This document shows positions 1,825 through 63,925 of a stretch of DNA of 64,000 nucleotides, piece after piece. Position 1 is the stretch's first letter. Each line of letters opens with the position of its first letter. The position numbers were made by a program, and so were the translations under genes. This DNA comes from Naegleria gruberi. Taxonomy: Eukaryota. Where the stretch lies: NCBI GenBank assembly GCA_000004985.1, contig GG738887.1; one strand, 5' to 3'. Under the pieces are notes generated by a model. That model saw nothing but the letters and a program-made list of their open reading frames with translations, did no database searches and had not been told where the DNA came from.

Positions 1825-2190
1825 TTAACTACGAAAAAGAAACATACCAACTAATTTATCCTTATCACCAGTCACTGCATAATTCCAAATCTTTTCACCA
1901 TTCCATTCAGGATGATTTTCAAAAACATCAATTAAACCATGCATATCACGTGAACACATCCAAATCATTAAATCTTCATGTGTCCATTCAATAATTGGTA
2001 ATTCATATTCAAGAAAATGTTTAGATTGATTTCCACCATTTTGATTGCTATTCGAATGTAGTACTGAATTTAAAATATGTCGATGAGAAGCTAACACTCT
2101 CAATAAGGAAAAATCTGTTGGAATTCCAAGAAAATCTCTGAAATATGAATTTGCATAAATTTGTCCATGTTCCAACATTTCACATAACAA
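1825..2190 (-). CDS. Exon of the same gene encoding a SAM-like domain
   Basis: The motif WTHEDLMIWMCSRDMHGLIDVFENHPEWNGEKIWNYAVTGDKDKL fits the SAM consensus. The exon ends at a GTATGT donor. Confidence 0.5.
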   Translation of the reverse strand: MLCEMLEHGQIYANSYFRDFLGIPTDFSLLRVLASHRHILNSVLHSNSNQNGGNQSKHFLEYELPIIEWTHEDLMIWMCSRDMHGLIDVFENHPEWNGEKIWNYAVTGDKDKLVGMFLFRS

Positions 2191-2391
2191 TATTTGAAAT
2201 TGATTCTTTCTTTCCTCAATTACTTTATCATCAAATCGATCTATTTACATTTATATGAACATTAATATATTTAAAAAATATATTCAATAGTTTACAATCA
2301 ATATATTAAATATTAAATAGTAAATATTAAATATTAAATTTCCATATCAATACAAAAATAACAATAACAACAAACATACTAAATGCATTCT

Positions 2392-2701
2392 TTTCAGGCA
2401 TTTCCGATAACACAACATTCGGCAACTTGACACACAAATCATACAATTCTTTAAATTCCTTAAATCTCCGCGATACTTTAAAATTAATAATTGTCTCACG
2501 AATTCGAGTTGTAATATCGTAGAGTGTTTTTTTAGATAAAAAACCATCACTCTCATCAATTTTATTATCTGTAATAGTGATGGTGATGAATTTGTGTGGA
2601 ATAATTCCGATATCTTGGAAGGCTAGGTCTTCGTGTTCTTCCTCCATTTCAACGTAGTGGTTTTTTTCATCTTGTGAATGTTTGCTAATGTAGTGAAACA
2701 T
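2392..2701 (-). CDS. Probable 5' exon of the same gene with a PX-like motif; start at 2701
   Basis: The start codon follows an A-run. The motif RRFKEFKELYDLCVKLPNVVLSEMPEKNAF resembles the PX RR(Y/F)S(D/E)F...LP...P segment. A GTATGT donor lies near 2392. The 3' boundary is approximate. Confidence 0.4.
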
Positions 2702-2993
2702 TTTTTTTTTTTAGGAGTTTCGAATAGAGTTGATTTTTAAAGGTCAACGAATGAGATTTTTAGTGAACACCATTTTCGGAGCACGATCTATTTAACATTT
2801 GGAACATGAATTGTAAAGTTGTTTATTCGAATATTTAAATAAACTTCAGTGCAATAACATTTAAATTGTACAAAATTGTTACGTACTTTACAAAGAAAAT
2901 TAAATTTTCAAGATGAACTTGCAAATAAATTCTTTAAAAAAAAATATCTTCACATGATTGAACCCATTCACTATATACACACACAATCTAAAA

Positions 2994-16834: not shown

Positions 16835-17183
16835 TTTTTTATTGTTGTGCTAAAGATAAACAACTCAGGTGTCACGCTATTTAACAAGCCAAATATGTAA
16901 ATTTTGGTGGATATTGACATTATGGAGCTAATACAGACAGTAAGCGTCATAATTGGTTAATCCAATGTATTGATTGGGGTAGAATTCAAAAATTCATCAC
17001 TCAAATATGTTTTAATTGTGTTTTTGTTGAGATGTTTGTTTTGAGCAACATTTTCTCTGGTGTGATTCAAACCCACCATATACAAACCGCCACAATCCTC
17101 TCATTACAGTTACCATGATTAATAAGGTGAAACGTAGTTCTCTCTGTAAATCCTGCCGTATCAAAAAAAACTTGAACAAAATA

Positions 17184-17858
17184 ATGAAGGGCTCAATCCT
17201 CGTGTCCATTGTTCTTCTTCTCATTGTTAGCTTGCAATTGGTCTCAGCTTTTGGTGTTGCCGATAGCACTGTTGATAGAGTGAGAAAGACTCTTGTTGAA
17301 AAACAGGAACAACTCAAGAAAGTTCAAGATGGCATTCAATATCAAGAGGTTCTTCTCTCGGGATCTAAGAATTATGGAAATAAGGAAAGTCCAATAATGA
17401 TATCTTATAATCAAGAGAAGGAACAACAAATTTCCGAATTAAAACAACTTGAAAAGACAATCAATTTTGAAGTGGATTTCTTAAAGAAGAATTGGGAGGA
17501 AAGAGTTGTTATTGCCTTGTATCGTAATTTACTCAATAGAGCTCCAGAACCAACTGGATTGGCTCATTGGGCTAGTGTCTTGAGAGTGAATGATGTTAGA
17601 AAGACCATCAAAGCGATCGCCCATTCCGAAGAATACAAGCAAAAGAATATGAATACTCCAACTGAAACTGTCAAGAATGGTTATAGAATTATCTTGGGCA
17701 GAGAAGTTGAATCAGATAGTGTATTGGCTGAACAAGTTAAAAATGTGGAAAAGTTTGGACCTTTGGCTGTTATTGTTGCTTTGATTGATTCTGATGAATA
17801 TACTAAGGCATTTGGAGATTATTCAGTGCCTATTCCTGCTCAAATTACAAAGAAATAA
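17184..17858 (+). CDS. Secreted DUF4214 domain protein
   Basis: A signal peptide (MKGSILVSIVLLLIVSLQLVSA) is followed by a DUF4214 signature (ALYRNLLNRAPEPTGLAHWASVLRVNDVRKTIKAIAHSEEY). Confidence 0.6.
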   Translation: MKGSILVSIVLLLIVSLQLVSAFGVADSTVDRVRKTLVEKQEQLKKVQDGIQYQEVLLSGSKNYGNKESPIMISYNQEKEQQISELKQLEKTINFEVDFLKKNWEERVVIALYRNLLNRAPEPTGLAHWASVLRVNDVRKTIKAIAHSEEYKQKNMNTPTETVKNGYRIILGREVESDSVLAEQVKNVEKFGPLAVIVALIDSDEYTKAFGDYSVPIPAQITKK

Positions 17859-25195: not shown

Positions 25196-25259
25196 ACCTA
25201 AGCTTATTAAAATGGAAGTTTCCTATTTAGTTGATCTCTATTTTTCAAAATCAAAAACA

Positions 25260-25898
25260 ATGAAACAACGAATAATCATAATATTAATTGTATTAGTAAT
25301 TTTCTCCTTAGGACTGGTAACTTCTTCAAGATCTAACTCTACAAACCTTAGAGGCACTCGGGCTGCTCAAACAACATGTGAGGATTATCAAGTTTCTTTC
25401 TATGTGGACGATGATTCAACAAGCCAACAGCAGTGCGGAGAATGTATACCAGGATCATCAGGAATCGACACTAAAGAGTTTTGTCAAATTGATGAATACT
25501 GTACAGACGAAGGAAAATGTGAAAGCATTACAAAACAACCCTTATTTATGACAACGTGTCCTAGAGAGCTAGGTAAAACCTTAACAAAAGATGGATTTTG
25601 TGGACCAGGTTTGAGATGTATCCAACATAAATGTATTCAATGTGTGACAGGTATGATGGATTATGCTGATGGTAAAATCTGTATTGATTCAGTGTGGACA
25701 TTCAACAATTTAAAGATTGGATTTTATCATCCTACTGTCATCTTTCTAACATCTTTTGTAGTTCTAGTAGGATTCAACATGTCAATTGATTGTTGTTTCG
25801 ATATTGTATATTCCATTCGAAAAAAGAAGAGAAAGCAAATTGAGGAAAGATACAGGATATTCTATCAATATATTCGTACAAGAAGTAATAAATTATAA
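25260..25898 (+). CDS. Cys-rich type I membrane protein, hypothetical
   Basis: The ATG follows an A-run. There is a signal peptide (MKQRIIIILIVLVIFSLGLVTS), a Cys-rich ectodomain, one TM helix and a short basic tail. Confidence 0.5.
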   Translation: MKQRIIIILIVLVIFSLGLVTSSRSNSTNLRGTRAAQTTCEDYQVSFYVDDDSTSQQQCGECIPGSSGIDTKEFCQIDEYCTDEGKCESITKQPLFMTTCPRELGKTLTKDGFCGPGLRCIQHKCIQCVTGMMDYADGKICIDSVWTFNNLKIGFYHPTVIFLTSFVVLVGFNMSIDCCFDIVYSIRKKKRKQIEERYRIFYQYIRTRSNKL

Positions 25899-36272: not shown

Positions 36273-38243
36273 ATGAGTTCAATGCAGCCGAATGATGATA
36301 AAACACCACCAAATCAGCAAACACCGACTACTTCTACAAATCCTTTCGGTGCTGTTTTAAATAAGGCTGGTATACTCAGGAGGAGGATGTCAAGTCCTCA
36401 TGGTGATAATATTAACAAAGCAGAGGCACTGGTTACTAAGCAATTATCAAACTTGGAGAACTCTATCAAGGATACAGTGAAAAAAACTGTGGTAAAATTT
36501 GGTAATGAAGTTGATGATTTGATCGATAATTTAAATAAGATTGAGGATACATCAGCATTATTGAAGGAACAGATAGAAAAAGAGGCGGATCTTAAAAGGA
36601 AGCTTACGGAAGTAGAAAAGGAAAATGAGGATTTGAAGAAACAAGTAGAAAAGTTAAGCAAAGATTATAAATCAAAATGTGATGATGTTGAATCAAAGGA
36701 TTCTGCCATTGAAAAACTACTCAAGAGAGCCGCAGAAAGAGAAAAGGAGCTTAATGATACTAAGGATTTGCTAAGACAAAAAAATCAGAAAATTTCCTTT
36801 CTAGAAAATATCCACTCTGAAATTTTGAAAAATGCTACAAAAGAGGAGAAATTTAAATTGAGCTATATAGATTCAGAAACAAAGAGGATGGTGTTGGAAA
36901 ATGAAGTCAGCGATATGAAGAGAAGTCTGGAAAGTATGCAAGCTGAACAAGGTATCAAATCTTCTTCCAAGAGATTCCAAAATCAGTTGGAAGCGCAAGC
37001 TCTTGAAAAGGAGAAGGATAATCTTGAGAAACAAGTACAATCTCTTTTAAAACAATGTAAAGATACTGAGAGACAACGAGATGCTTGTAAAAAGATTGCC
37101 GCAGAAGCTAATGATAAAGTTACTAGAATGGAAGCAACATTAAAGGAATGTGAAGATAAGCGAGTGAAGGCAGTTGAAGAAACCATGAAGAGAAGTACGG
37201 AACTTAAGAATTCAGCACAAAAGATCAAGGAGTTGGAAACCAAATTGGCTCTAAGTGAACAAAAGATTCAAGATATCGAAGATCTTACATTGTTATCCAA
37301 GCTCCATGAGGAAGAAATGAAGGGAACCGGATCTGTAGAACAGTTGAGAAGACTGCACACCTACAGGCAAAATAAGCTGGATAAGGCCAATTCAAGTTCT
37401 TCTGTACAACTTCGTATCCTTGAGAAGGAACATAATGCTTTACGAATGAATTATGATCTTACCATGATGGAAGTTAGTAACTTATTTGATCTTAACCAAT
37501 CCTTAACTTCACAATTGAAGGAGCTTAAAGAAGGAGCAACACCTACAAATTCCGAAGAATGGAAGATTTTAAAGCAAGAAGAAAAATCAGAGTTGGAAAA
37601 TTTACAAACAATTCAAAAGTTAAAGGAAGAAATTGATAGATTGAGGGAAGAAAATGACAAATCGAAGAATGCCATTGAAATTAAATGTATGGAAATCTCA
37701 AGCTTTAAGGATCAAATTGATGAAATGAAATCAAGATTTCAAAATTTGTCAACCGAAGCTAAAAGTGATTATGAGACTTATGCCGAGAGGGAAACCAATT
37801 TATTGCGAAGTATGGATGCCTGTGAGCAAGTTATTGAAGAAAAGAAGAAGGAAATTGTTGAACTCGTGTCTACTAATAACACATTGAAGCAACAAATAGA
37901 AGAAGTGAGCACAACAATGAATGCAAAGATTGAAGAAATCCAGGAACAAAGTAAAAAGGAAATTGAAGAAATCACAGAAAAAAGCAACAAGAAGATTGAA
38001 GAAATTACAGAGAAAACCTCTAAACAAATTGAGGAAATTACGGAACAAACTTCAAAACAAATTGAGGAGGTAAAATCACAATATCAAAAGGAGCTTTGTG
38101 AAGCATCAGTTATCACTGATCCAAATGATCAATCTGAAAATGCATCCCAAACAGAACAAATTTCTGGAGATCTTAACTCTAAATCAGATATTGAATCAGA
38201 ATTGGATACTCTCAATCAACAACTTGAATTGGTCACTTCTCAA
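36273..38243 (+). CDS. Long coiled-coil protein, exon 1
   Basis: Heptad-rich sequence runs over about 650 codons. A donor GTGAAA lies near 38244. Confidence 0.5.
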
Positions 38244-38295
38244 GTGAAAGAAATAACTGCATTGAAACAAGCAGAAAAGGAGAATTTTGATATAG

Positions 38296-39369
38296 ATGAT
38301 AACAGCCAAGAAACAGGAAATGAAGGTTTTGCTTGATGAGAAAAAGAGAAACCTAGAAGAAATCATGTCCCTTAATAATCAAAGAACCAAACTTGAGGAC
38401 ATTGTAAAACAAGAAACAGAAAAGTTGGAACGTATTGTAAAACAGAAGAATCTTGTAATTTTAAGCCAAAATGATGTAAACTACGAAACACAACCAAGCA
38501 ACATTGAAATCATTGAAACTATTGAAACAAATAATGAAACCTTTTCCGTACAGGGAAGCAAAGAGGAGGAAGAGGACGTTGATGAGTTTGACATTGTTTA
38601 TTCTAATGAAATTCAAACTCCTAATCATTTAGAATCTGAAGAGCAAGCCAATACTGATGACGATATTTGTAATGTAGATTTACCACAGGATGGAACTAGT
38701 ATTTCTCAAAACTATGAACCTACTCCTGATTATTCATTACGGGAAGACCTCGAGCATGAAGACGAAATTATGAAGAGAGTCAAAGAACTGCAATCTTGTT
38801 TAAGTCCAGATTACGCTCTTACATCATATGAAGATGTGGAGCAACACCTTGGACATGAAGCCCAAACGAACACTACACCAATGTCTCTTGATCATTCTGT
38901 TGAGGGTACTCCCCTTACTCCTCTTAGTTTGTTATCTCCACAAACTGATGAACAGAGCTTGTCTGAGAAAAAGGATGTCTGTGTTGAAACAGATGTATTC
39001 TATGAGATTGAGCCAACAACCAAAGTCACCAAGTTTGAAAAGCTGTTTACCCAAAAGTGGAATGATTTTGAAGAAGATGAAAGTGATTATTTCCTCAACA
39101 TTCCTTCACCAAAAACTGCTAAAAAACAAGTCTACTATTATGAAAAGAAATATTTACATCTCAAGATGAAATATAGACAGATGGTTGAAGAACTTGTCCG
39201 ATTTGAACTTGGATCAAGACAATACAAACAAAGAACTCGTAAATATAGGGAAGATCTGGAAACCTCTAAGAAGAAACTTGTTTCGCTTAATAAGGAAAAG
39301 AAAGAGTTGGAACGTGATCTTAAAGCCAGAATTTTAGGTCTCGAAAAGAAGCTCAAGAGGAATCAATAA
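38296..39369 (+). CDS. Long coiled-coil protein, exon 2
   Basis: A roughly 52-nt intron with acceptor gatatag joins the frames as ..LELVTSQ|MITAKKQEMKVLLDE. This explains the 41-nt overlap between the two ORFs in different frames. Confidence 0.5.
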   Translation: MITAKKQEMKVLLDEKKRNLEEIMSLNNQRTKLEDIVKQETEKLERIVKQKNLVILSQNDVNYETQPSNIEIIETIETNNETFSVQGSKEEEEDVDEFDIVYSNEIQTPNHLESEEQANTDDDICNVDLPQDGTSISQNYEPTPDYSLREDLEHEDEIMKRVKELQSCLSPDYALTSYEDVEQHLGHEAQTNTTPMSLDHSVEGTPLTPLSLLSPQTDEQSLSEKKDVCVETDVFYEIEPTTKVTKFEKLFTQKWNDFEEDESDYFLNIPSPKTAKKQVYYYEKKYLHLKMKYRQMVEELVRFELGSRQYKQRTRKYREDLETSKKKLVSLNKEKKELERDLKARILGLEKKLKRNQ

Positions 39370-39396: not shown

Positions 39397-40216
39397 TTAA
39401 CTGGTATAAATTTTTACAATACTGTCAGCACCACCCGAAGCCAGTAAATCTTGTGAATGATGATAGGAAACACAATTAATAGATTCATCAAACTTCTTTC
39501 TATGACCAGGAAGTTCTTGAACACAAGACTTGGAACCAATATCCCAAACTCTTAGAGAGGAGTCATGACCAACAGTTGCAAAGTATAATCCACTACGATC
39601 AAAGGCCACTGAAGTAACTGCCTCCTTGTGACCAACCATTTGACTAAGTACCTTACCACTTGATGAATCATAGAATCTGATCTTCTTATCTTCATTAGCA
39701 GTTACTATGATTGGGAGTTTATCGTGACATGCGAATTGATAGACTAATGCGTCTGTCTTACCATCATCAATATTCTCTGAAATCCATATTGATTTTCCTG
39801 TTTCCACATCAAAAGCAGCAATTTTAGAATTAGTGAAAGAGGCAATAAACTTGGAAGTATCACTTGGCAAGAAAGAAACGCAAGTAGGTGTTCCAATCTT
39901 TGAAAGCATGAAAGTTTTCTTAATTTCTCCTCTTTCATAATCCCAAAGAATAACTGAATCGTCAGAACTTGCTGATAACAGTGATTGATTACTTTCATTT
40001 AAGGAAAGAGACCAAACAACATCTGTATGTCCTTTGAGTGTAGTCTTTAAGAATGGAGTAGCAAAACCATAATTTGTGTATGGATTATGATCCAATTGAG
40101 GAATATCCCATACAATAATTGTTTCATCAAAACCTGCACTAAAACAATGTGATGAACCACATTTAACAGTACAAACTCCTCCTGTGTGACCTCTCAATGT
40201 TTGAATTGGAGTATCA
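39397..40216 (-). CDS. Striatin homolog, exon 3 (WD40 repeats)
   Basis: WD40 repeats are present (TLRGHTGGVCTV.., LKGHTDVVWSLS, MVGHKEAVTSVAF, LPGHRKKFDESINCVSYH). The exon joins at an acceptor aaacag. Confidence 0.8.
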
Positions 40217-40258
40217 CTGTTTCTTGTTAATATTATTCAAATTAAAAATGAAACTTAC

Positions 40259-42990: not shown

Positions 42991-44391
42991 ATGGCACAAC
43001 TTGAATCTAGCTCTTTCAATGCTAAATTAATAATAAATGAATTGGATCGTATAAAGGCTGATTATTTGAAGACTTGCTCCGATCATGGTGATTGTATTAT
43101 TAATTCTTCAAATTCCGATTGTTTAAATTCTTCATCACATAAAACTTTGGTTCAATTTATTGGAGAGGAAATGAAATTGAAACATGCTGTCAATGTGACC
43201 GTTCATGGGAAATATCCACAGAGATTAATTTGTTTGCATTATAATCAAACGAGAGCAAATTTTGAAAATTCATTGACTAGGGCATGTCGTGGAGTAATTG
43301 TAGATTTGGAAGAGATGAGGATTGTTCATATGCCTTTTTCAAAGTTTTTCAATTTTAATGAACCAATGGCTAAGAGAGATTCAGAAATTATTTCAGAACA
43401 TTTCGATCATGTTAAAATTTATGAGAAATTCGATGGATCAATTGTGAATTTTTACTTTTTTGATGGAGAATGGAGGGTGGCTTCATCATCAACTCCTGAT
43501 GGAAGTGCCAAGATGGGATTTTATTCAGTTTCAAAGGATAAAGAGGAAAATGAAAAACATAGACAGGAATCAAAGACTTTTGTATTTGCTGATTTGGTGT
43601 GGAATGCTTTTAATGACCTCGGTTTCAAAATACCACCAACAGAATTTGAGGGAAAATATTCATTTACATTTGAATTATTAACTCAAAAACATCCATTAGT
43701 TGTACAACATCCAGAACAGGATAATTTAATTTTACATGGTGTGAGATGCTTGGAAACATTTTCAGAAAAATCAATTGAACCATTTGCTCAACAATTCAAT
43801 TGGAAATACGCAACATGCGTTAAGGAAAAATTCGGATTCAAATCATTGGAAGATGTTTCCAAGATGGCTGATGAAAGAAATGCCTATGAACACGAAGGGT
43901 TTGTCGTTTGTTATGAAACTCCAGATAACAACGGGTCTGAATCAGTTGATTTCATTAGAGTGAAGATTAAAAATTCTGAATATGTGAAAATTTCACTCAC
44001 CTTATTCGATTCCGTGGAAAAAAGAGAAAACTCCTTTATAGAAATTATTAAGAAGAATGAATCTAGTGAATTTTTAGCTTATTTCCCTCAATTCGAATCG
44101 GCTTTCCACAGATTAAAGTTAGAATATAACTCCATAGTGGAAAAGTTGAACAATGTTAGAGGGAAAATAGAGGGAATAGTTGAGGAACTTGTAAAACAGG
44201 AAACTGACACTATCAGTGTCACAAGGATGAAAGCTCTTCAATCCATTGCCATTCAACAAGCCAAAGATGAACTCAAATTCTCCAAAACGATTGCAGATAT
44301 AATGTTTGGATTATGTTCTGATAGACAACTCATGGTTGAGGATGTTCTCAAATCAATGCCTCTTAAACGATACAAAACTCTCCTTTTCTAA
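42991..44391 (+). CDS. ATP-dependent RNA ligase, T4 Rnl1-like nucleotidyltransferase
   Basis: The N-terminal motif RACRGVIVD..RIVHMPFSKFFNFNEP compares with RP.EKFFNLNE in Rnl1. Motif I is KFDGS (YEKFDGSIVNFYFF), motif IV is EGFVV (HEGFVVCYE) and motif V is K-x-K (DFIRVKIKNSEY). The gene is a single exon. Confidence 0.6.
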   Translation: MAQLESSSFNAKLIINELDRIKADYLKTCSDHGDCIINSSNSDCLNSSSHKTLVQFIGEEMKLKHAVNVTVHGKYPQRLICLHYNQTRANFENSLTRACRGVIVDLEEMRIVHMPFSKFFNFNEPMAKRDSEIISEHFDHVKIYEKFDGSIVNFYFFDGEWRVASSSTPDGSAKMGFYSVSKDKEENEKHRQESKTFVFADLVWNAFNDLGFKIPPTEFEGKYSFTFELLTQKHPLVVQHPEQDNLILHGVRCLETFSEKSIEPFAQQFNWKYATCVKEKFGFKSLEDVSKMADERNAYEHEGFVVCYETPDNNGSESVDFIRVKIKNSEYVKISLTLFDSVEKRENSFIEIIKKNESSEFLAYFPQFESAFHRLKLEYNSIVEKLNNVRGKIEGIVEELVKQETDTISVTRMKALQSIAIQQAKDELKFSKTIADIMFGLCSDRQLMVEDVLKSMPLKRYKTLLF

Positions 44392-44591: not shown

Positions 44592-45965
44592 ATGACTACG
44601 TGGCCCGAACATAGAGTGTTCAAAAGGCTTCACGGAGGAGCCTTTGTGTTGCTAGCAATTTATTGTACATTTAAACGAGTGTTTAGTCATGAAGCTTTGG
44701 ATGCCTTTCCGGAACGTGCCACTCGATTGGATATTTGGATGAAGAATATGTTTTTATTGATAATGGCAACATTGATGAGCTATTATTCGATTAAAAGAAT
44801 ACTCTCGGATATATTTGTAAATTTAAAAGGAATTAAGAGACAATTATTATTTATTATTTTAATTTATTTATCATTGGCATTGTATGGACAAGTTTATTCT
44901 AATATGAGTGGAAGAATGAAATCATTTTACTTTAGAATTTTCATAACATATGTTGGTAATTTGTGGCAAATGATAGCCATGCTATTCCTTACATTTTTGC
45001 TAGTGTTTTATGTTCCGATTTACTACATGATGAGGAAATTGAGTGACAATTTTGAGACAATGAAGAAAATTATATTATTTATTTCAGTAACTTTGTGTTT
45101 GTTTGGACTTTATCATACTTTGAGTCCAAGAGTTGTAATGGAACATTCAGTGAACGTTTCAAAAGGATTGGATCAAAAGAGATACATTAAGATTATTCCT
45201 ATTAGTGATGTACATTTGGGGCATTCAATGAGTGTTAAGGATTTTTCAAATTTGAGTCAGGACATTTTGAATATTGTAAATAGAGATCCAGAAAATACGC
45301 TTGTACTTTTTATGGGAGACTTTTTCACTTTTGAATCAGAATTTAACGTTGCCTTCGAAGATGCAATTTATGAAGGATTGAAACCACTCCAATCCATTCA
45401 CAAGAATGTCTATGTAGCTCTAGGAAATCATGATATAGATCTTCTGGATACTGTTCTTTACCAGCTAAAAAGATTACAAATTACAATTCTTACAGATGAA
45501 AGTTTGGTATTGAAGAAGAAACGAATTCAATTGACAGGTTTCAATTACTTCTTTAAGAATGCTGACATTTTATCTAAACAAGTAGCAAGTAATGCCAAGA
45601 TGGAGAAGGATGTAGATTTAAGACTTTTATTATTACATAATCCTTCTCACTTTAAATATGCTGCTAGTGAATTGAATGACAAGATTCCATCTATTACTTT
45701 TAGTGGACATTTTCACGGTGGACAATTCAGTGCTCGTAATTTCTTCAGATCTCTAAGGATAGGTTTTGTTGAGGCTATTACTGGTCATCCTGACTATGAA
45801 TGGTATGGATTTGATTTTGAATCTGAAACTGTCAAGTCCCTTAGCTCTATTGCTTTGAAACCTTCCAATCCATTACTCTATGTTTGTTCAGGGGCTGGTT
45901 TTTATGGACCTCCTTTACGAATTGGCACATCCTCCGAGTTACCAATTATTCATATCAATTACTAA
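44592..45965 (+). CDS. Transmembrane metallophosphoesterase (TMPPE/YkuE-like calcineurin-fold phosphoesterase)
   Basis: About six N-terminal TM helices precede metallophosphoesterase motifs (ISDVHLG, GDFF, GNHD, GHFHGGQ). Confidence 0.65.
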   Translation: MTTWPEHRVFKRLHGGAFVLLAIYCTFKRVFSHEALDAFPERATRLDIWMKNMFLLIMATLMSYYSIKRILSDIFVNLKGIKRQLLFIILIYLSLALYGQVYSNMSGRMKSFYFRIFITYVGNLWQMIAMLFLTFLLVFYVPIYYMMRKLSDNFETMKKIILFISVTLCLFGLYHTLSPRVVMEHSVNVSKGLDQKRYIKIIPISDVHLGHSMSVKDFSNLSQDILNIVNRDPENTLVLFMGDFFTFESEFNVAFEDAIYEGLKPLQSIHKNVYVALGNHDIDLLDTVLYQLKRLQITILTDESLVLKKKRIQLTGFNYFFKNADILSKQVASNAKMEKDVDLRLLLLHNPSHFKYAASELNDKIPSITFSGHFHGGQFSARNFFRSLRIGFVEAITGHPDYEWYGFDFESETVKSLSSIALKPSNPLLYVCSGAGFYGPPLRIGTSSELPIIHINY

Positions 45966-49798: not shown

Positions 49799-50923
49799 AT
49801 GATGAACAAAATATCTATCGCTCATCTTCCCTACTTTTTAATGAAATGTCCTCCTCCGAGAATTCACGATCCAAATCGCCAACTTGCCATAGACCATCTA
49901 ATCCAACAATGCTTAAAACATTCAATAATTTCCTCCCCGAAACATGCTCAATTATTTCGTTCCAAACTCGACCAATACAATCATATTGGATTAATTTATA
50001 ATTGTTATTATCCATCGAATTTAAATTATCAAAATGTTGTTGATGTTGATGATGCTGGAAAGGCTTGCCAACAAGTACAATTGCAACATTTGAAATTTAT
50101 TACCAATTATTTCTTCTTCTTGTTTAGTGTTGATGATCGGATTGATAGTGTTGTGGAGAATGATGATAGGGAGGCGATGGAAAGGAAGAATTGTTTGATT
50201 GATCAGTTGGTTGAGGTTTTGAGGGTTTATAGAAAGTTGGAGGATGGTAAGGTTGAGAGTAAGGATCCACATGTCAATTTCCTGATTCAAATTATGGAGG
50301 ATTTACATTTAATGACTGGAAATCAGGAGACAATTGATAGATTTGTGGGAAATATGGAGGGATTTTTCAATATTGGAGTGAGGGGTAATCAAGAGAATGA
50401 AACACCTGAAAATTATTTGGAGAGGAGAATTTATGATAGTGCCACTTATGCCATGTTGAATGTTTTGGAAATTACTTCGAGTAGAAATGCAGTTGGGTTG
50501 ATTGGGGAGGATTACAATACTGAACTCTTCTCAAAAGCTCACAGATTGTGTGCTATTGTTTTTTCAATGGTTAATGATTTACTTTCCTATCATAAGGATG
50601 TGGTACTGCCATCAGGAGGAAATTTATTGGGATTGGATTCGAATTTATCGTATATTCAGGTATTGTTGAAGAATAATAAGGATCTTTCATTAGAGCAGGC
50701 AACAAATCAATGTTTAGACTATATCCTTGAATCGAAATCTCAATTTGAGGCCATTATGAAATTGTGTGTAGATAATTGTAACGAGAAGCAATTGGATTAT
50801 ATTAGAGGAGTAGAAAAGCTCATGGATGGAATGTGTCTTTGGATGCTCTATTCCAACAGATACAGACACGAGGAGCAAGTTTATGAGGAATTGACAAAAT
50901 TGGTTGATGAGGAAAAATTCTAG
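49799..50923 (+). CDS. Class I terpene synthase (microbial/dictyostelid TPS type)
   Basis: A DDxxD motif (FLFSVDDRIDSV) and an NSE/DTE-like motif (VNDLLSYHKD) are about 140 residues apart, as in class I terpene cyclases. The gene is a single exon. Confidence 0.7.
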   Translation: MMNKISIAHLPYFLMKCPPPRIHDPNRQLAIDHLIQQCLKHSIISSPKHAQLFRSKLDQYNHIGLIYNCYYPSNLNYQNVVDVDDAGKACQQVQLQHLKFITNYFFFLFSVDDRIDSVVENDDREAMERKNCLIDQLVEVLRVYRKLEDGKVESKDPHVNFLIQIMEDLHLMTGNQETIDRFVGNMEGFFNIGVRGNQENETPENYLERRIYDSATYAMLNVLEITSSRNAVGLIGEDYNTELFSKAHRLCAIVFSMVNDLLSYHKDVVLPSGGNLLGLDSNLSYIQVLLKNNKDLSLEQATNQCLDYILESKSQFEAIMKLCVDNCNEKQLDYIRGVEKLMDGMCLWMLYSNRYRHEEQVYEELTKLVDEEKF

Positions 50924-50961: not shown

Positions 50962-52812
50962 TTACAAGTATTGAAGATTATGTTGTTGAATCTTATATCT
51001 AGAGAATGTATCCAGGGCAAGGTTTGACTTGACAGCATTGAACAGCTTATCGAACAAATCAAGTTGTCCTACACCTTTAACAATAACACCCATTTCCTTC
51101 TTTACAACATGGCCAGCAAGATTGATTGGAAAGGATGATTTTTCCTCCATTAAGAAGGTCTGAATGATACTCTCTTGTTTGATCATTCTCTCATGAGTAT
51201 GTTTAAATGTCTTGTATTCCAATACTGCATCCAAGAATAACATATTTTCCTCAGATTTTTCAGATTTACAGAATTGTTTAAATCTTTCCTTTTCTTCAGA
51301 GTTTAAGAGTAATCTGTCAAATTCATTGTCCATTGAGAAGAGTGAACTGGATTTAGAAATTGAAGAGCCCAACATTTGTGATGAAATTCTACCAACAAAG
51401 ACAAACATATGTTGATCTCCAGATGACATTTTAGATTTGGTGATATAGGCATCAAAATCAATATTCTTTCTCTTCTTTGTGACACCAGTGAATGGATGTG
51501 ACATGAGATCATCATAACTGGAAATAACTTGACTCAAGCCCTCACCTGCTTTGGCAGCCTCTTTCAATTGAGGGAAGATTTTATCGAGAGGCATCTTGGT
51601 AATTCCTTCAACATCCACAGCACTATAACCAAATCTTTCATAGAATGCAGTGTTTGCATGTGAAATAAAACCATCAGGTGTAACTGTCAAGACAATATCC
51701 TTAATACTATTCATAATGGAGGTTGTTCTTTCTTCAGCAACTGAAATTCTTTCTAAAAGCTTTTTCAATAATTCCTGCTCTTGAATTTGTTGCTCCAAGA
51801 GAACATCCAAACTATCCAACATGTAATTAATATTCTTGGAGACAGTTCCTAGCTCATCAGTACCTGTTGTTGAATCTGAAACTGAAACTCTTTGTTTGCT
51901 GTCATTGGATGCTGTAATACGTTGAATTTGAGTGGTGAGTGTTGTGAGACGTGACAAGACTCTTCTCTCAATGAAAAAGATGACAATCATGGAAGCAATG
52001 GCACAAACAACAAGCAATAAACCAATGGCCAACAAGACCGATTGAATTCCCAACAAGTAAACATCTCTTGCAATATCAGTTCTTACAATCATCAACTTGT
52101 TACCATAAATATCATTCACTAATTCTAGAGAGGCAAATCTTTGTTCACTCAACATAGTTCCATTAGTTTTCCAGCATTGTCTCTTTGAAAGAGAATCAGA
52201 AGAGAGAACTTCATAGGCAAAAACATCCAAATTGTCCCAATCAGCAGAAGTTTGATAAACATAAGTTCCATTCACTGAGCTCACTTGTTTAGAATAACTT
52301 GAAACAACTGCATCACTTGTATCCGAAAGTAAATGGAATGAGCAACACAACTGAGCACTATTTGCCAATGCATTAATAAATTTCGAGCTCATAATTCTAC
52401 CAAAAACCAAAACTCCTGAAGTATCTGATTGATCTGTATAATCACTCACAGACAATGGAGATGCAGAAAGCATAACAAGTTGTGAATTGTAATTATAAAA
52501 TCCACCATTTCTAGTATTTGGAGAGTCCATGTTTTTCATCAATGGATGACTTGATGGGAGGTATTGTAAAAACGTTGGAAGTGATGAAATACTTGTAGAA
52601 ATAATTCCAGTTGAGAAATCAATTGATCTTGGAACAGCAACTGTTCCATTCTTGAAATAATAAACAACCCAATTAACTTTAGATGATGTCATGATTGCCT
52701 TTGGAAAGTTTGAATCCATATAATCACTAACTTCATTGACAGTTGCCAAATTATTGGCATATCTCTTGAAAATATCATACGGAACTGTCCAAGCAGAAAA
52801 TGGCAATAAATT
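50962..52812 (-). CDS. Two-pass membrane receptor: Cache-like ectodomain, TM, PAS, RGS domain (3' exon)
   Basis: After the second TM helix (VYLLGIQSVLLAIGLLLVVCAIASMIVIFFI) comes a PAS-like region (IVLTVTPDGFISHANTAFYERFGY). An RGS signature follows (ERFKQFCKSEKSEENMLFLDAVLEYKTF). Confidence 0.6.
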   Translation of the reverse strand, partial: NLLPFSAWTVPYDIFKRYANNLATVNEVSDYMDSNFPKAIMTSSKVNWVVYYFKNGTVAVPRSIDFSTGIISTSISSLPTFLQYLPSSHPLMKNMDSPNTRNGGFYNYNSQLVMLSASPLSVSDYTDQSDTSGVLVFGRIMSSKFINALANSAQLCCSFHLLSDTSDAVVSSYSKQVSSVNGTYVYQTSADWDNLDVFAYEVLSSDSLSKRQCWKTNGTMLSEQRFASLELVNDIYGNKLMIVRTDIARDVYLLGIQSVLLAIGLLLVVCAIASMIVIFFIERRVLSRLTTLTTQIQRITASNDSKQRVSVSDSTTGTDELGTVSKNINYMLDSLDVLLEQQIQEQELLKKLLERISVAEERTTSIMNSIKDIVLTVTPDGFISHANTAFYERFGYSAVDVEGITKMPLDKIFPQLKEAAKAGEGLSQVISSYDDLMSHPFTGVTKKRKNIDFDAYITKSKMSSGDQHMFVFVGRISSQMLGSSISKSSSLFSMDNEFDRLLLNSEEKERFKQFCKSEKSEENMLFLDAVLEYKTFKHTHERMIKQESIIQTFLMEEKSSFPINLAGHVVKKEMGVIVKGVGQLDLFDKLFNAVKSNLALDTFSRYKIQQHNLQYL

Positions 52813-59866: not shown

Positions 59867-60220
59867 TTTGTTATTTTTGAATTTGCACTTGAAATTATGA
59901 TGAACCTGGTGAGTTAAGGAATTTGTTGGAGGTCATCTAGATCATGGTCTAGTAAGATAAAGATATAAAACTTCCACTATTATTAATACTACTGTGTACC
60001 TGATTTCTTATTGTTTGTTAAAAAATTTCTTCACCATTAAACTTTTGTGTACGGTAAAATTTGAGCGGCAAAATTTCTTTAACAAAAAACAATACAGCAC
60101 AATATTGCTTATCTTCTCTCAACATGATGAAGTACATGGCACAAACAAGAAGAACATAATGGAGTATTATTATGAACTTTAAAACAAGTGCAAATTCAAA
60201 AAAAACAAATTAACACTTAG

Positions 60221-60781
60221 ATGATCACTGCTTCTTCATCTTCGGGTGAAAGGAATGAAAAACTTTCATCCATCGCTTTGGATATTAATAATGATAGGAA
60301 TAACAACAAACCTCTCTTATCCTTTACCATCTACAATAATTGTTCATCGTCTTCATTAGAAGCTTCCTTGCCAAATACTGCAAGTTTATTAAATTGTGAA
60401 TTTAGTATTTCACCAATCAATGCTACTGATGAGAACAATCAAGTTACAATGATTGGAGTGGAAATTACACAAGCCAAGTTTGTAAATGTTAGGAGAACTG
60501 TATTTGATGCAATTTTAAGTGATTTTCCTTCGGGTTGGATTGAACCAAAGGATGTGGATCATGTTTTCTTTACTGAACATGAGTCAGTTATCAAATTGAT
60601 GGAAGGAGCTCTTTGCTATGATGATGATGGGTTCAAGTTCTTTTCTACATTGCAATCAGCACCTGTTGATGTAGATTTAAAAGATTTGAATAGTTTTTGT
60701 GATGATCTTTTTGGGTTGAATGGAACATTTGTTCTGTATGATGAATCAGCTCCATTATGTATTAGTTGTAAAGAACTGTAA
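60221..60781 (+). CDS. Hypothetical protein; first of three overlapping same-strand ORFs, probably the 5' part of one large gene
   Basis: The ORF is 186 codons and the ATG follows A-rich sequence. It overlaps the next ORF by 62 nt in another frame. Candidate introns include GTAGAT at 60671 to ag at 60773, and GTGATG at 60699 to ag at 60765. Confidence 0.4.
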   Translation: MITASSSSGERNEKLSSIALDINNDRNNNKPLLSFTIYNNCSSSSLEASLPNTASLLNCEFSISPINATDENNQVTMIGVEITQAKFVNVRRTVFDAILSDFPSGWIEPKDVDHVFFTEHESVIKLMEGALCYDDDGFKFFSTLQSAPVDVDLKDLNSFCDDLFGLNGTFVLYDESAPLCISCKEL

Positions 60782-62333
60782 CAAGTGGAATAGTTATGCA
60801 AGATTGGGAAGTGGAGATATTCCAGAGGCATTCCACAAGTTTAGGATTTATCATTCGAAAATTACTGTCTTGCAAGAGTCTCAGGCCTATGAGCTGATTG
60901 ATCAAAGTGACGAAATCAAATATTATTTAAGTTGTGTTCAAGAGAATTTACCACTCGTCAGGGTTACGCCAAGAATTCTATCCATGTTTACAGAAGGATT
61001 GGAAAAGCTTACAATTTCCAATAGTTTCTCAGAGAATTCTTTGGCAATGTCAGTATATACAGCTTCCTTCTCCAACATTTTGCAATCTCATCCTTTTTCA
61101 AATGAGGATCAAATCATTTCACTTATGAATTCATCTTTAACATGCTACGAATTTCCCAGAGTAGATCACAGATTTATTAGGTCAATTACTTCAAAATGTA
61201 GAAATGGAGTTTTTGAATGTCAAGTACATTTACCTGAGATATCCGAGACTAACAGGTTATTTAACAAGTTAGGAACTGATGGATTTCTTAAAGTGAAAAT
61301 CATTGGACAAGTTCCCTCTGGAATATATTTACAGGGAAAGACCTATTTACCGCTTGGAGGTTCATCCAACATGATGAGGGAGAGAAATATGTATTTTTAT
61401 GACTCATCCTTGTATGAATCTGTGGAGACTATCATTTCACAAATGGGAGAAATATCTATTGATAATTTGCATCAATTATGTGAAACTGAATGTAATGAAC
61501 CGGAGCAAATCAATAATGGAGAACCTGGATATCTCACTCCCTCTATGACTCATTCATTAATTGCTTTGGGCGTTCAACCACTAGTTCTTCAAACTATTTT
61601 TGAAGAATGGTTCAATTCTACCGTCAGTAATTTGACCAATCCAAACTTTTTGCTTGATTTACTAAAGGGAAGGTGTAGGGAAACTCTTCCTGCTGTCCAA
61701 AATCTCTCCGAGATACCAGACAACCCATTTATTGAAGACTTATTGCGACATTTAGTATCTTCCCATTTGCAGAAAGTTCAAAATAACCTCATTATTCCAA
61801 TTGACAAGTCAATTACAACTACAAGTTTAATTGATGAGAATAAGTGTTTAAAAGAAAATGAAATGATGGTTATACTTGGAAATGAATATTTAGAGGATGG
61901 TACGATTGTTCTAGTGTGTAATGAGCCATGTCTTTCCCAATCAAATGTTAAACTTTTCACAGTTAGAAATGACGAAACTTTGAAAGTCAAGTACGAAACA
62001 AACCATTCATTAGTTATTCTCCCAAGTATCCTGAAGAGTGATAGTGTCTTTGCATGTTGGGACTCAAGAATGATTCCAACTCTTGTTTCCAGTCAAATTA
62101 CCAATTCATACCAAAAATTGAAAACAGTACAATCTGAGGATTTACAGAGTCAAATTCTTGACGGATGGATTGCTGTTTCTGACAAGGAAGGCGCAACATC
62201 CACAAAGGCAATTGAGCTTTCTAATTTATTTAATGAAATTAGGAATAGCAACAAGATTGAGCTTCCTAATTGGTTTAACAGCTGTCTAATTCCATCTCTA
62301 GATATTTGGCAAAATTCAGATTGGACCAACTAG
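60720..62333 (+). CDS. Hypothetical protein, middle ORF of the run (537 codons)
   Basis: The long open frame has typical codon usage and no recognisable domain. Confidence 0.45.
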   Translation: MEHLFCMMNQLHYVLVVKNCNKWNSYARLGSGDIPEAFHKFRIYHSKITVLQESQAYELIDQSDEIKYYLSCVQENLPLVRVTPRILSMFTEGLEKLTISNSFSENSLAMSVYTASFSNILQSHPFSNEDQIISLMNSSLTCYEFPRVDHRFIRSITSKCRNGVFECQVHLPEISETNRLFNKLGTDGFLKVKIIGQVPSGIYLQGKTYLPLGGSSNMMRERNMYFYDSSLYESVETIISQMGEISIDNLHQLCETECNEPEQINNGEPGYLTPSMTHSLIALGVQPLVLQTIFEEWFNSTVSNLTNPNFLLDLLKGRCRETLPAVQNLSEIPDNPFIEDLLRHLVSSHLQKVQNNLIIPIDKSITTTSLIDENKCLKENEMMVILGNEYLEDGTIVLVCNEPCLSQSNVKLFTVRNDETLKVKYETNHSLVILPSILKSDSVFACWDSRMIPTLVSSQITNSYQKLKTVQSEDLQSQILDGWIAVSDKEGATSTKAIELSNLFNEIRNSNKIELPNWFNSCLIPSLDIWQNSDWTN

Positions 62334-63925
62334 AAAAAATAGAAAGCAAATTAAATGGATATAAGAAGAATCTTGCAGATCAACAGAAAGAGCAGGATGA
62401 TATTTACATAGTAGGATCCTTATCAATTCTACTCCATGATCCAAACGAAACAGACTGTGATTGGTTTATTGAACCAGTTTCTGATAATCCAACATTCTTT
62501 GATGATCTATGTCACAGACTTTCGACTTATTTCAAACCAATCAAGGAAGAATATCACAAATCCGTTCCTCTATTTAGAATTTATTTACAAGAAAGGGATT
62601 TGAGATTTTTAGAATTGATAGATTTGACCAATGGAGATACTGGGTTCAGAAAAAAGCATCACATGAGATTATATTTAGCACAACAGCCGAAACTCTTGCT
62701 TATTCTCAGAATTTTATTCGATATTATCAAAAAGATTTGTGCTTTCCATGTTAAAACTTTCCAACTCACTTGGGAAGTTGTGGATTTTTGCATTTTGAGA
62801 AATTACATTCACAGGGAAAGACCACCAACGAGAAAGGAGTCAGTGGACCAGGAGAAACAGTTCTCAGACTCTTCTTTTATGAAATCAGTTCTTTCTAAAT
62901 GTTTGGAATCTGAAAATTTTGAAAAGGAATCCGAACTAATCATTGATTTTATGAAATTTTTCAAATTGAAAAATAACATGGAATTTCCAGATAATCTTGA
63001 CGATTCAAAATCCTATTCAGCTACCAGTGATGAAAGAAAACTTGAATATGCTCATGATTTGATTCAAACATGTCTTATCAACTTGCACCTTTATAGAGAT
63101 TTCACCAAGGCAATTTTGCCAACACAAGTAATTCAAAAAACATTTGAGGAATTTAAGAATGTTGATGCTAAACCTGTTTTCAGAGCTGAATCTAGAGATT
63201 TTGTGGATGGCTCTGTATTGACACTTTTTAAAGGAGATTCAGGAGAAAGTCCAATTAATTTCACATTTTACAAAGGTCATGTTCATGCTCAACATGCCAA
63301 ACTTCCAATCCATAGGCCTTCTTTAGAAAAATACAATCCAGAATCTAATAACTTGATATCGCCTATGTATGATCAAAAGCTTTCTAGTCAATTAACTAAA
63401 ATGGAAGATAAACCAGAGAATTACGTGTTTATTATTAGATTTGGAGTTTACTATTTGGTGAATATGCAAAAATCAATCTTCTCTGAAATTACCAAGCCAG
63501 AAAATTCATCTGTGTTTAATGAATGTATGAGAAAGAAAGCAAAAGTAGTGAAAGGTCCCTCAGCAGACTCATTTGCTACTGGTGTCAGTGAAAACGTTGT
63601 GCCTTTCCTTCGTCCAACCGATTCTCCTGCAAGAATGACTGAATATTCAGTCAGTTTTTACAAGAATGTCAATAACAAATCAACTGAATTCAAAGTGAGA
63701 TTGGACGAAAATATGAAATTGAAAACCAAAGTAATTAGTGGTCAATTGAGAGTAATTTCACATACTTTTATTGGTAAAAACAATGATATGAGATTCTACA
63801 TTAATCACTTGCAATATTTGGATGTAAATAATGAAATTTCAGAACTAGTTGACAAATTGGACAAGAAAGGATGGTTAATCAAACAAGGAGCCAATGACAC
63901 AGAAATAGTTTTAACAAGAAACTAG
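62306..63925 (+). CDS. Hypothetical protein, last ORF of the run (539 codons)
   Basis: The frame is open from 62279. The first in-frame ATG lies about 360 nt downstream of the frame opening, which implies a join to the upstream ORF. One candidate is donor GTCTAA at 62284 to acceptor cttgcag at 62378. Confidence 0.4.
   Translation: MAKFRLDQLEKIESKLNGYKKNLADQQKEQDDIYIVGSLSILLHDPNETDCDWFIEPVSDNPTFFDDLCHRLSTYFKPIKEEYHKSVPLFRIYLQERDLRFLELIDLTNGDTGFRKKHHMRLYLAQQPKLLLILRILFDIIKKICAFHVKTFQLTWEVVDFCILRNYIHRERPPTRKESVDQEKQFSDSSFMKSVLSKCLESENFEKESELIIDFMKFFKLKNNMEFPDNLDDSKSYSATSDERKLEYAHDLIQTCLINLHLYRDFTKAILPTQVIQKTFEEFKNVDAKPVFRAESRDFVDGSVLTLFKGDSGESPINFTFYKGHVHAQHAKLPIHRPSLEKYNPESNNLISPMYDQKLSSQLTKMEDKPENYVFIIRFGVYYLVNMQKSIFSEITKPENSSVFNECMRKKAKVVKGPSADSFATGVSENVVPFLRPTDSPARMTEYSVSFYKNVNNKSTEFKVRLDENMKLKTKVISGQLRVISHTFIGKNNDMRFYINHLQYLDVNNEISELVDKLDKKGWLIKQGANDTEIVLTRN

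What the first reader, a model, noticed from the sequence alone, without database searches (positions are those of the whole stretch)
60221..63925. Three consecutive same-strand ORFs overlapping in three different frames: one 1,260-aa novel gene with cryptic introns, or frameshifts
The ORFs 60221..60781, 60720..62333 and 62306..63925 overlap by 62 and 28 nt, with frame changes of +1 and then -1. The third ORF frame is open for more than 100 codons before its first ATG, so it is almost certainly joined to the upstream ORF. Elsewhere in the window the same pattern (36273..38336 against 38296..39369) resolves as a 52-nt intron. Here only weak donors are available (GTAGAT or GTGATG near 60671-60699; GTCTAA at 62284 paired with a strong acceptor cttgcag at 62378). 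Possible explanations are noncanonical splice sites, an assembly indel, a recent pseudogene or programmed frameshifting. I recognise no domain in the protein.
Basis: seen in the sequence. Interest (0 to 1): 0.5.

Follow-up and report, generated by a model that had tools for sequence, protein, structure and literature searches.

The report
Broken RNA polymerase gene in Naegleria
The three overlapping reading frames are the pieces of one intron-less Naegleria gruberi gene, a degenerate RNA-dependent RNA polymerase fused to a nucleotidyltransferase, that a 2-bp and a 403-bp deletion have knocked out of frame; this is an ordinary recent pseudogene that the public annotation hides behind two made-up introns.

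Summary
In detail: three same-strand ORFs overlap by 62 and 28 nt, and the frames go +1 then -1. The window is Naegleria gruberi. The locus is already annotated as NAEGRDRAFT_80768, "RNA-dependent RNA polymerase". That model joins the ORFs with GT-AG introns at 60693..60765 and 62127..62281.

A 98.6 %-identical environmental contig (L001) has 2 extra bases at 60752/60753 and 403 extra bases at 62279/62280. These are exactly the two junctions, and L001 reads straight through both. L001 carries its own 5-bp frameshift elsewhere. Repairing that gives one uninterrupted 1372-codon ORF.

Both annotated "introns" encode residues conserved in the intact paralogue NAEGRDRAFT_67961. They lack the GTAAGT donor seen at local intron candidates and have exon-like GC.

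So the cause is frameshifting deletions. It is not cryptic introns, programmed frameshifting or a 1-nt error.

The protein is an RdRP-family domain that has lost its DxDGD catalytic loop (I-LKSD) and other blocks. It is fused to a Cid1/Trf4-type nucleotidyltransferase whose signature residues are intact.

dN/dS of 0.31 and high conservation of ORF3 show the gene was constrained until recently. I could not exclude an assembly artefact or an intact second allele without reads. Interest is low.

The parts
60221..60752 (+). Segment 1 (frame mod3=2): N-terminal region of the gene, from the ATG to the first lesion
   Evidence: It is 97.8 % identical in tblastn to residues 1-178 of the reconstructed 1372-aa protein.
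60752..60753 (+). Lesion 1: 2-bp deletion (window GCTC|CATT, relative GCTC-AA-CATT). It loses the AA of a CAA codon and causes the +1 frame change.
   Evidence: The paralogue P0003 is homologous on both sides of this point, so the in-frame state is ancestral (columns 150-200).
60753..62279 (+). Segment 2 (frame mod3=0): degenerate RdRP-family domain
   Evidence: Pfam PF05183, 64.4 bits against a cut-off of 23.8. ORF2 aa 269-419 (nt 61524..61976) match profile positions 242-408 of 582. tblastn with P0003 covers 60756..61409 and 61521..62300.
62028..62063 (+). Remnant of the catalytic loop: ILKSDSVFACWD where the paralogues have DFDGDRVFVCWD / DLDGDRYFICWE. Two of the three Mg-binding Asp are lost.
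   Evidence: columns 730-760; coordinates. The contig L001 shows the same state.
62279..62280 (+). Lesion 2: 403-bp deletion (403 mod 3 = 1), with 1 nt of microhomology. It removes about 134 codons from the end of the RdRP domain and the linker, and causes the -1 frame change.
   Evidence: The missing stretch is an open reading frame in L001 and aligns to P0003 and P0004 (columns 850-1010). It is not found elsewhere in the window.
62282..63925 (+). Segment 3 (frame mod3=2): Cid1/Trf4-type nucleotidyltransferase module plus a conserved C-terminal region. The G-S is within 62408..62425, the D-x-D within 62453..62467, and the third Asp within 62615..62629.
   Evidence: invariant G32 S33 D45 D47 D101. 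(profile against PDB: RET1 8e-7, TUT4 2.6e-5, Trf4 7.8e-5). (Pfam MTPAP-like palm in homologue P0007). (coordinates).
60693..60765 (+). Intron 1 of the public gene model (73 nt, GTTTTT..TATTAG): judged an artefact that bridges lesion 1
   Evidence: the exon map reproduces P0001 exactly. It is coding and continuous in L001 and homologous to P0003. GC is 33 %.
62127..62281 (+). Intron 2 of the public gene model (155 nt, GTACAA..TAACAG): judged an artefact that bridges lesion 2
   Evidence: It encodes VQSEDLQSQILDGWIAVSDKEGATSTKAIELSNLF..LPNWFN, which aligns to the conserved block of P0003 and P0004 (columns 798-855). GC is 36.8 %, above that of the exons.

Best explanation
The region 60221..63925 is a single, originally intron-less gene of about 1372 codons in Naegleria gruberi. 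It encodes a diverged paralogue of the cell's RNA-dependent RNA polymerase fused to a non-canonical poly(A)/uridylyl-transferase-type nucleotidyltransferase. In the sequenced genome this copy carries two frame-disrupting deletions, 2 bp at 60752/60753 and 403 bp at 62279/62280. No intact protein can be made by ordinary translation, so this is a recent pseudogene or null allele. The two GT-AG introns in the public model NAEGRDRAFT_80768 are software devices that restore the frame. Shown here: the lesions, the uninterrupted ancestral ORF, the domain identities, and the loss of the RdRP catalytic loop. Inferred: that the lesions are real mutations rather than assembly faults, that inactivation is recent, and that the ancestral protein worked through its nucleotidyltransferase part and not as a polymerase.
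For: Organism and annotation come, with the exon map verified. The metagenome contig L001 is 98.6 % identical. It has +AA and +403 nt exactly at the two junctions and a private 5-bp deletion at window 61789. Undoing that 5-bp deletion gives one ORF of 1372 codons. The paralogue P0003 (NAEGRDRAFT_67961, intact DFDGD, Pfam RdRP 6e-101) and Willaertia P0004 align through both 'introns' and through the 403-nt stretch. Twelve GTAAGT-bounded candidate introns elsewhere in the window are 32-85 nt long with 12-34 % GC; one interrupts a run of WD40 repeats. The gene contains no GTAAGT or GTATGT. Its model introns start GTTTTT and GTACAA, have 33-37 % GC, and stay open in the upstream frame. Recent inactivation is supported by dN/dS = 0.31 (17 synonymous and 21 non-synonymous differences, binomial p = 7e-4). 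It is also supported by divergence of 0.4-1.7 % in the gene against 5.8 % in the upstream spacer.
Against: I had no reads or transcripts, so an assembly fault or an intact second haplotype in the sequenced strain cannot be excluded. dN/dS well below 1 and three in-frame 3-bp indels show selection for most of the time since the two copies split. That is unexpected for an old pseudogene and leaves room for residual function of the pieces. The comparison rests on a single related contig from a metagenome, and that contig also carries a frameshift. Rescue by cryptic splicing, as in the public model, is not formally excluded for this allele.
Confidence: 0.78

Rival explanations
1. Assembly or sequencing artefact: the real NEG-M locus is intact, and the 2-bp and 403-bp gaps are errors of the reference assembly, or the assembly picked a defective haplotype.
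For: The gene shows purifying selection (dN/dS 0.31). A relative carries the missing bases. Other same-strand overlapping ORF pairs exist in the window.
Against: Two independent errors in one 3.7-kb gene, one of them 403 bp long and without flanking repeats, are unlikely. The independent contig L001 also has a frameshift in this gene, which fits a gene that tolerates loss.
Confidence: 0.1
2. Cryptic or non-consensus introns, as in the public model or the first reader's GTCTAA(62284)..cttgcag(62378) pair, are spliced out and give a functional protein of about 1160 aa.
For: Both model introns have GT-AG ends and the correct length classes (73 = 1 mod 3, 155 = 2 mod 3), and they reproduce P0001.
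Against: The sequences they remove are coding and conserved in L001, P0003 and P0004. The donors are GTTTTT and GTACAA, against GTAAGT at 12 local candidate introns. GC is exon-like. The relative needs no intron at either site.
Confidence: 0.07
3. Programmed +1 and -1 ribosomal frameshifting joins the three frames.
For: The overlaps are short and the frames return to the original one. A +1 shift at CTG-T-AAC over the ORF1 stop codon is formally possible (reading).
Against: There is no X XXY YYZ heptamer in 62279..62333. The frame changes are absent in the 98.6 %-identical relative and are explained by deletions.
Confidence: 0.02
4. Three independent genes, or at least an independently expressed ORF3 nucleotidyltransferase.
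For: ORF3 is the most conserved part, at 0.4 % divergence. In N. fowleri the homologous module lies next to a helicase with no RdRP domain.
Against: ORF3 has no ATG for 128 codons, and the G-S/DxD motif lies upstream of the first ATG. All homologues carry the parts in one chain.
Confidence: 0.03

Closest known systems
NAEGRDRAFT_67961 (P0003), the intact N. gruberi paralogue
   Same: It has the same RdRP - nucleotidyltransferase - C-terminal region architecture and is collinear over the whole length at about 38-40 % identity.
   Different: The paralogue keeps DFDGD, the DGIG/PSAxQxRxxGFKGV block and AVDFPKNG, with Pfam RdRP at 6e-101. The window copy lacks all of these, is shorter, and is frameshifted.
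Eukaryotic cellular RdRPs (Pfam PF05183: QDE-1, plant RDR1-6, S. pombe Rdp1, Dictyostelium RrpA-C)
   Same: The domain is homologous, with a score above the curated threshold.
   Different: The catalytic DxDGD loop is replaced by I-LKSD. Only profile positions 242-408 are matched in the window copy. By the family's known chemistry (my own knowledge) it is predicted to be inactive as a polymerase.
RDRC-type partnerships of RdRP with a Cid1/Trf4-family nucleotidyltransferase and a helicase (S. pombe Rdp1-Cid12-Hrr1, Tetrahymena Rdr1-Rdn1/2, C. elegans RDE-3 with RRF-1; my own knowledge, plus PMC12265681 for RDE-3)
   Same: The same enzymatic modules occur together. ORF3's module matches solved TUTases and Trf4.
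   Different: Here the modules are fused in one polypeptide. Willaertia P0004 and Cavostelium P0007 also carry the helicase. No functional link was tested.
Helicase-RdRP fusions of Dictyostelium, oomycetes, Hydra and Nematostella (PMC4791657)
   Same: Relatives P0004 and P0007 have DEAD/ResIII + Helicase_C + RdRP.
   Different: The window gene and P0003 lack the helicase. The C-terminal nucleotidyltransferase is not discussed in that paper.
Young pseudogenes bridged by artefactual introns in automated eukaryotic gene models
   Same: A frame-restoring GT-AG 'intron' is placed over each indel and deletes conserved coding sequence.
   Different: Nothing unusual.

Membership tests
Cellular RdRP (Pfam PF05183) | Significant match to the family profile above the curated cut-off | tested here: met
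   ORF2 scores 64.4 bits against a cut-off of 23.8, E=1.1e-17. The reconstructed protein scores 70.4 bits over profile positions 242-580.
Cellular RdRP (Pfam PF05183) | Catalytic DxDGD metal-binding loop | tested here: not met
   I-LKSD aligns to DFDGD (P0003) and DLDGD (P0004). Only the third Asp is kept. L001 has the same state.
Cellular RdRP (Pfam PF05183) | Complete domain (profile positions ~1-582), including the DGIG..PSAxQxRxxGxKGV and AVDxPKTG blocks | tested here: not met
   About 100 residues are absent at alignment columns 411-560. AVDFPKNG is degenerated to EIRNSNK. A further ~134 residues are removed by the 403-bp deletion.
Cid1/Trf4/GLD-2-type nucleotidyltransferase (Pol-beta superfamily) | hG[GS] ... 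DxD ... third carboxylate signature | tested here: met
   G32, S33, D45, D47 and D101 are invariant in alignment A2. In the window they read IVGSLS, DCD and IDLT.
Cid1/Trf4/GLD-2-type nucleotidyltransferase (Pol-beta superfamily) | Significant sequence-profile match to characterised members | tested here: met
   Profile A2 against PDB: RET1 5hzd 8.2e-7, TUT4 2ikf 2.6e-5, Trf4 3nyb 7.8e-5. Homologue P0007 has Pfam MTPAP-like_central at 1.2e-10 in the aligned region. ORF3 alone gives no Pfam hit.
Cid1/Trf4/GLD-2-type nucleotidyltransferase (Pol-beta superfamily) | Nucleotidyltransferase fold | tested here: inconclusive
   The AlphaFold2 model of ORF3 from a 6-sequence alignment has mean pLDDT 41.9, too poor for a fold search.
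Spliceosomal intron (as in the public model) | GT-AG ends and a frame-restoring length | tested here: met
   60693..60765 is 73 nt and 62127..62281 is 155 nt. The exons translate exactly to P0001.
Spliceosomal intron (as in the public model) | Not part of the conserved coding sequence; local donor consensus and AT-rich composition | tested here: not met
   Both stretches are coding in L001 and conserved in P0003 and P0004. Donors are GTTTTT and GTACAA, against GTAAGT at 12 local candidates with 12-34 % GC. The model introns have 33 % and 37 % GC.
Pseudogene | Frame-disrupting lesions relative to an intact ancestral ORF | tested here: met
   A 2-bp and a 403-bp deletion. The ancestral ORF of 1372 codons was reconstructed.
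Pseudogene | Neutral evolution (dN/dS near 1) | tested here: not met
   dN/dS is 0.31, p=7e-4 against neutrality. Inactivation must therefore be recent, or the pieces retain a function.
Pseudogene | No full-length protein or functional transcript | not testable with these tools
   No transcript or read data were reachable. Exact-product look-ups found nothing.
Programmed ribosomal frameshift | Slippery site in the overlap and conservation of the shift in relatives | tested here: not met
   No X XXY YYZ heptamer. The relative is in frame at both sites.

The most novel reading that the evidence does not exclude
The ancestral 1372-aa protein was a pseudo-polymerase: a catalytically dead RdRP scaffold kept under selection because of its fused, still intact Cid1/Trf4-type nucleotidyltransferase. 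Naegleria would then be dismantling the polymerase half of a single-chain 'RDRC'. Three observations point that way. N. gruberi has one intact and one dead copy. N. fowleri has helicase plus nucleotidyltransferase with no RdRP domain. Independent null alleles segregate in N. gruberi-like populations. The helicase-RdRP-nucleotidyltransferase fusion in Willaertia and Cavostelium would be a Rosetta-stone link for the RDRC complex.
Probability: 0.3. Interest if true: 0.45.

Novelty: new member of a known kind. Interest (0 to 1): 0.22.

Why it matters
The main value is an annotation correction. NAEGRDRAFT_80768 should be flagged as a disrupted gene, and its two introns should be removed. It is also a clear example of gene callers inventing introns to bridge indels. 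A secondary point is that the locus documents an RdRP-nucleotidyltransferase fusion family in Heterolobosea and Amoebozoa. In Naegleria, the polymerase half of that family is repeatedly degraded while the nucleotidyltransferase half is conserved. This is useful for reconstructing the RNAi machinery of early-branching eukaryotes, but it does not change any concept.

Tried and rejected
- phmmer of the joined protein against PDB found no hit.
- Word-indexed homology searches returned only the self model, and nothing for the nucleotidyltransferase alignment. The candidate list seems to be saturated.
- Exact-product look-ups for the neighbouring gene, for P0001, and for ORF1, ORF2 and ORF3 (two possible starts) found nothing on record. 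No independent NEG-M contigs or transcripts were obtained.
- A scan of JGI metagenome contigs with the reconstructed protein found no relative.
- The AlphaFold2 model of ORF3 had pLDDT 41.9. I did not use it and ran no fold search.
- GT-hexamer enrichment over the whole window was uninformative. I replaced it with a scan for GTAAGT between long open frames.
- Literature searches found no description of this locus or of an RdRP-nucleotidyltransferase fusion in Naegleria. The N. gruberi genome paper is not in the library.
- Programmed frameshifting and three separate genes were considered and rejected (see rival explanations).
Full report
**1. Observation**

The ORF listing reproduces the three + strand ORFs exactly: 60221..60781 (186 aa), 60720..62333 (537 aa) and 62306..63925 (539 aa). 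They overlap by 62 and 28 nt. Their start positions are 2, 0 and 2 mod 3. The frame therefore moves +1 and then -1, and ORF1 and ORF3 share a frame.

The ORF2 frame opens exactly at 60720. The ORF3 frame opens at 62279, and its first ATG is at 62663, 128 codons later. The window is AT-rich (about 33 % GC), and stop trinucleotides occupy about 6 % of positions. ORFs of more than 500 codons are therefore not chance events.

**2. Identity of the locus**

ORF2 matches Pfam RdRP (PF05183) at E=1.1e-17 and 64.4 bits, against a cut-off of 23.8. The joined translation retrieves a single database protein, P0001. This is NAEGRDRAFT_80768 of Naegleria gruberi, named "RNA-dependent RNA polymerase" by UniRef, and it is 1158 aa long.

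Concatenating window 60221..60692, 60766..62126 and 62282..63922 translates exactly to P0001. The public model therefore bridges the two frame changes with two GT-AG introns:
- 60693..60765: 73 nt, GTTTTTGT...TATTAG.
- 62127..62281: 155 nt, GTACAATC...TAACAG.

The gene is neither new nor without a domain.

**3. The decisive comparison**

An exhaustive HMMER search with P0001 gave six relatives. They were traced by exact look-up:

| Id | Length | Source | Note |
|---|---|---|---|
| P0002 | 528 aa | ENA metagenome | 97 % identical to P0001 |
| P0003 | 1650 aa | N. gruberi, NAEGRDRAFT_67961 | paralogue, 40 % identical |
| P0004 | 2397 aa | Willaertia magna | |
| P0005 | 302 aa | Logan assembly of SRR29240419 | N. 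fowleri-type contig |
| P0006 | 319 aa | N. fowleri | |
| P0007 | 2433 aa | Cavostelium | |

P0002 lies on a 4012-bp contig, L001. L001 aligns to window 60003..63615 at 98.6 % identity, with 50 mismatches in 3598 columns. Inside the gene the only length differences are these:
- Three in-frame 3-bp indels.
- +AA in L001 after window 60752.
- -TCATT in L001 at window 61789.
- +403 nt in L001 after window 62279.

The +AA and the +403 nt sit exactly inside the two ORF overlaps. With them, L001 reads straight through both junctions. L001 is itself split by its private 5-bp deletion, giving genes 209-1795 and 1854-4010. Re-inserting TCATT into L001 and adding the last 310 nt from the window gives one uninterrupted ORF of 1372 codons.

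The polarity of the changes is set by the paralogues. P0003 and P0004 align across both junctions and across the 403-nt stretch (tblastn). The in-frame, longer state is therefore ancestral, and the window carries deletions. The 403-bp deletion has only 1 nt of microhomology. It has no GT-AG ends and no copy elsewhere in the window.

**4. Why the annotated introns are not introns**

- Both are translated and continuous in L001.
- "Intron 1" encodes SFCDDLFGLNGTFVLYDESA.., which aligns to DFHNEILRAVGRYILIDERSG.. of P0003.
- "Intron 2" encodes ..ILDGWIAVSDKEGATSTKAIELSNLF..LPNWFN, which aligns to ISDAWVAIVDSEGADSDRALELADLF..LPNWFK of P0003 and the same block of P0004.
- Their GC content (33 % and 37 %) equals or exceeds that of the exons (33-35 %).
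- Both remain open in the upstream frame.
- Elsewhere in the window, 12 of the 21 GTAAGT hexamers lie between two long open frames. The shortest intervening stretch to an AG acceptor is 32-85 nt, with 12-34 % GC. One of these interrupts a run of WD40 repeats at 40198..40257, so it is very likely a genuine intron.
- The gene 60221..63925 contains no GTAAGT or GTATGT.

**5. Other mechanisms**

There is no X XXY YYZ slippery heptamer in 62279..62333. Neither frame change is conserved in a 98.6 %-identical relative. Together these exclude programmed frameshifting as a designed feature.

Three separate genes are also unlikely. ORF3 lacks an ATG for 128 codons, and its key motifs lie upstream of that ATG.

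**6. What the protein is**

*RdRP half.* Compared with P0003 (Pfam RdRP 6e-101, DFDGD intact), this lineage has several losses:
- It lost about 100 residues containing the DGIG / PSAxQxRxxGFKGV block.
- DFDGD is replaced by I-LKSD at 62028..62063.
- AVDFPKNG has degenerated to EIRNSNK.

These changes are shared with L001, so they predate the frameshifts. By the established chemistry of this family (my own knowledge: three Asp of DxDGD bind the catalytic Mg2+), the domain should be inactive as a polymerase.

*ORF3 half.* ORF3 is collinear with the C-terminal halves of P0003, P0004 and P0007. In a five-sequence alignment, G-S, D-x-D and a third Asp are invariant. A profile of that alignment hits solved terminal uridylyl and poly(A) transferases:
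- T. brucei RET1, 5hzd: 8.2e-7.
- TUT4, 2ikf: 2.6e-5.
- Yeast Trf4, 3nyb: 7.8e-5.

The aligned part of Cavostelium P0007 carries Pfam MTPAP-like_central at 1.2e-10. ORF3 alone gives no Pfam hit. An AlphaFold2 model was too poor to use, with pLDDT 41.9.

The family is therefore [helicase]-RdRP-nucleotidyltransferase-C-terminal region. This is a single-chain counterpart of the RdRP / Cid12-type transferase / helicase partnership known from fission yeast and ciliates (my own knowledge). Whether this fusion has been described before I could not establish.

**7. How old is the damage?**

Over 1129 shared codons between the window and L001 there are 17 synonymous and 21 non-synonymous differences. 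This gives dS 0.025, dN 0.0078 and dN/dS 0.31. The deficit of non-synonymous changes has p = 7e-4.

Divergence by region:

| Region | Divergence |
|---|---|
| Upstream spacer | 5.8 %, plus four indels |
| ORF1 | 1.1 % |
| ORF2 | 1.7 % |
| ORF3 | 0.4 % |

Three of the six indels in the gene are multiples of three. The gene was therefore under purifying selection for most of the time since the two copies split. The constraint was strongest on the nucleotidyltransferase half. The three frame-breaking indels are recent and independent: two in the reference and one in L001.

This fits a dispensable gene with segregating or lab-acquired null alleles. It also means I cannot exclude, without reads, that the reference lesions are assembly faults or represent only one haplotype.

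**8. Verdict**

The finding is a real feature with an ordinary explanation. It is a recently disrupted copy of a degenerate RdRP-nucleotidyltransferase paralogue, mis-modelled in the public annotation with two invented introns. Interest is low. The modestly interesting residue is the fusion architecture and the repeated decay of its polymerase half in Naegleria.

Noticed in passing
L002 4851..8960 (N. fowleri VFQX01000003.1); L003/L004 3349..7458: The N. fowleri homologue has a DEAD/ResIII helicase ORF followed directly by the nucleotidyltransferase (P0005) and C-terminal (P0006) parts. tblastn with P0003 finds residues 801-1614 but nothing of the RdRP domain (residues 1-800). The polymerase domain therefore seems to have been lost there.
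   Followed up: partly
P0004 (Willaertia magna) and P0007 (Cavostelium apophysatum), whole proteins: These single polypeptides carry helicase + RdRP + Cid1/MTPAP-type nucleotidyltransferase. That is a one-chain version of the RDRC subunits. I found no description of the nucleotidyltransferase part in the searched literature.
   Followed up: partly
window 36273..38336 and 38296..39369 (+): This coiled-coil gene is split into two overlapping frames. It may be another frameshift bridged by a model intron.
   Followed up: partly
window 22325..25195 (+) and 25140..25898 (+): The first ORF is an Rrp6-like exosome exonuclease (PMC2NT, 3'-5' exonuclease, HRDC). The overlap with the next ORF looks like a mechanical early start codon of a separate downstream gene that begins with a hydrophobic stretch.
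   Followed up: partly
window, both strands; e.g. 40198..40257 (-), 19523 (+), 27127 (+), 47494 (+), 56326 (+): Twelve GTAAGT sites lie between long open frames. The shortest stretch to an AG acceptor is 32-85 nt, with 12-34 % GC. One interrupts a run of WD40 repeats. This points to a tight donor consensus and very short introns in this genome.
   Followed up: partly
window 17115..17858 (+): An ORF matches the phycobilisome linker polypeptide domain (PF00427, 2.9e-17) and DUF4214. That is unexpected in a non-photosynthetic amoeba and might be a bacterial-type acquisition.
   Followed up: no
window 50962..52806 (-) and 49799..50923 (+): One ORF is a CHASE4-HAMP-PAS sensor fused to an RGS domain, combining a bacterial-type sensor with a eukaryotic G-protein regulator. 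Its neighbour is a bacterial-type terpene synthase (PF19086).
   Followed up: no
window 42991..44391 (+): An ORF has a T4-type RNA ligase domain (PF09511, 2e-30). It is followed by a metallophosphoesterase ORF at 44592..45965.
   Followed up: no
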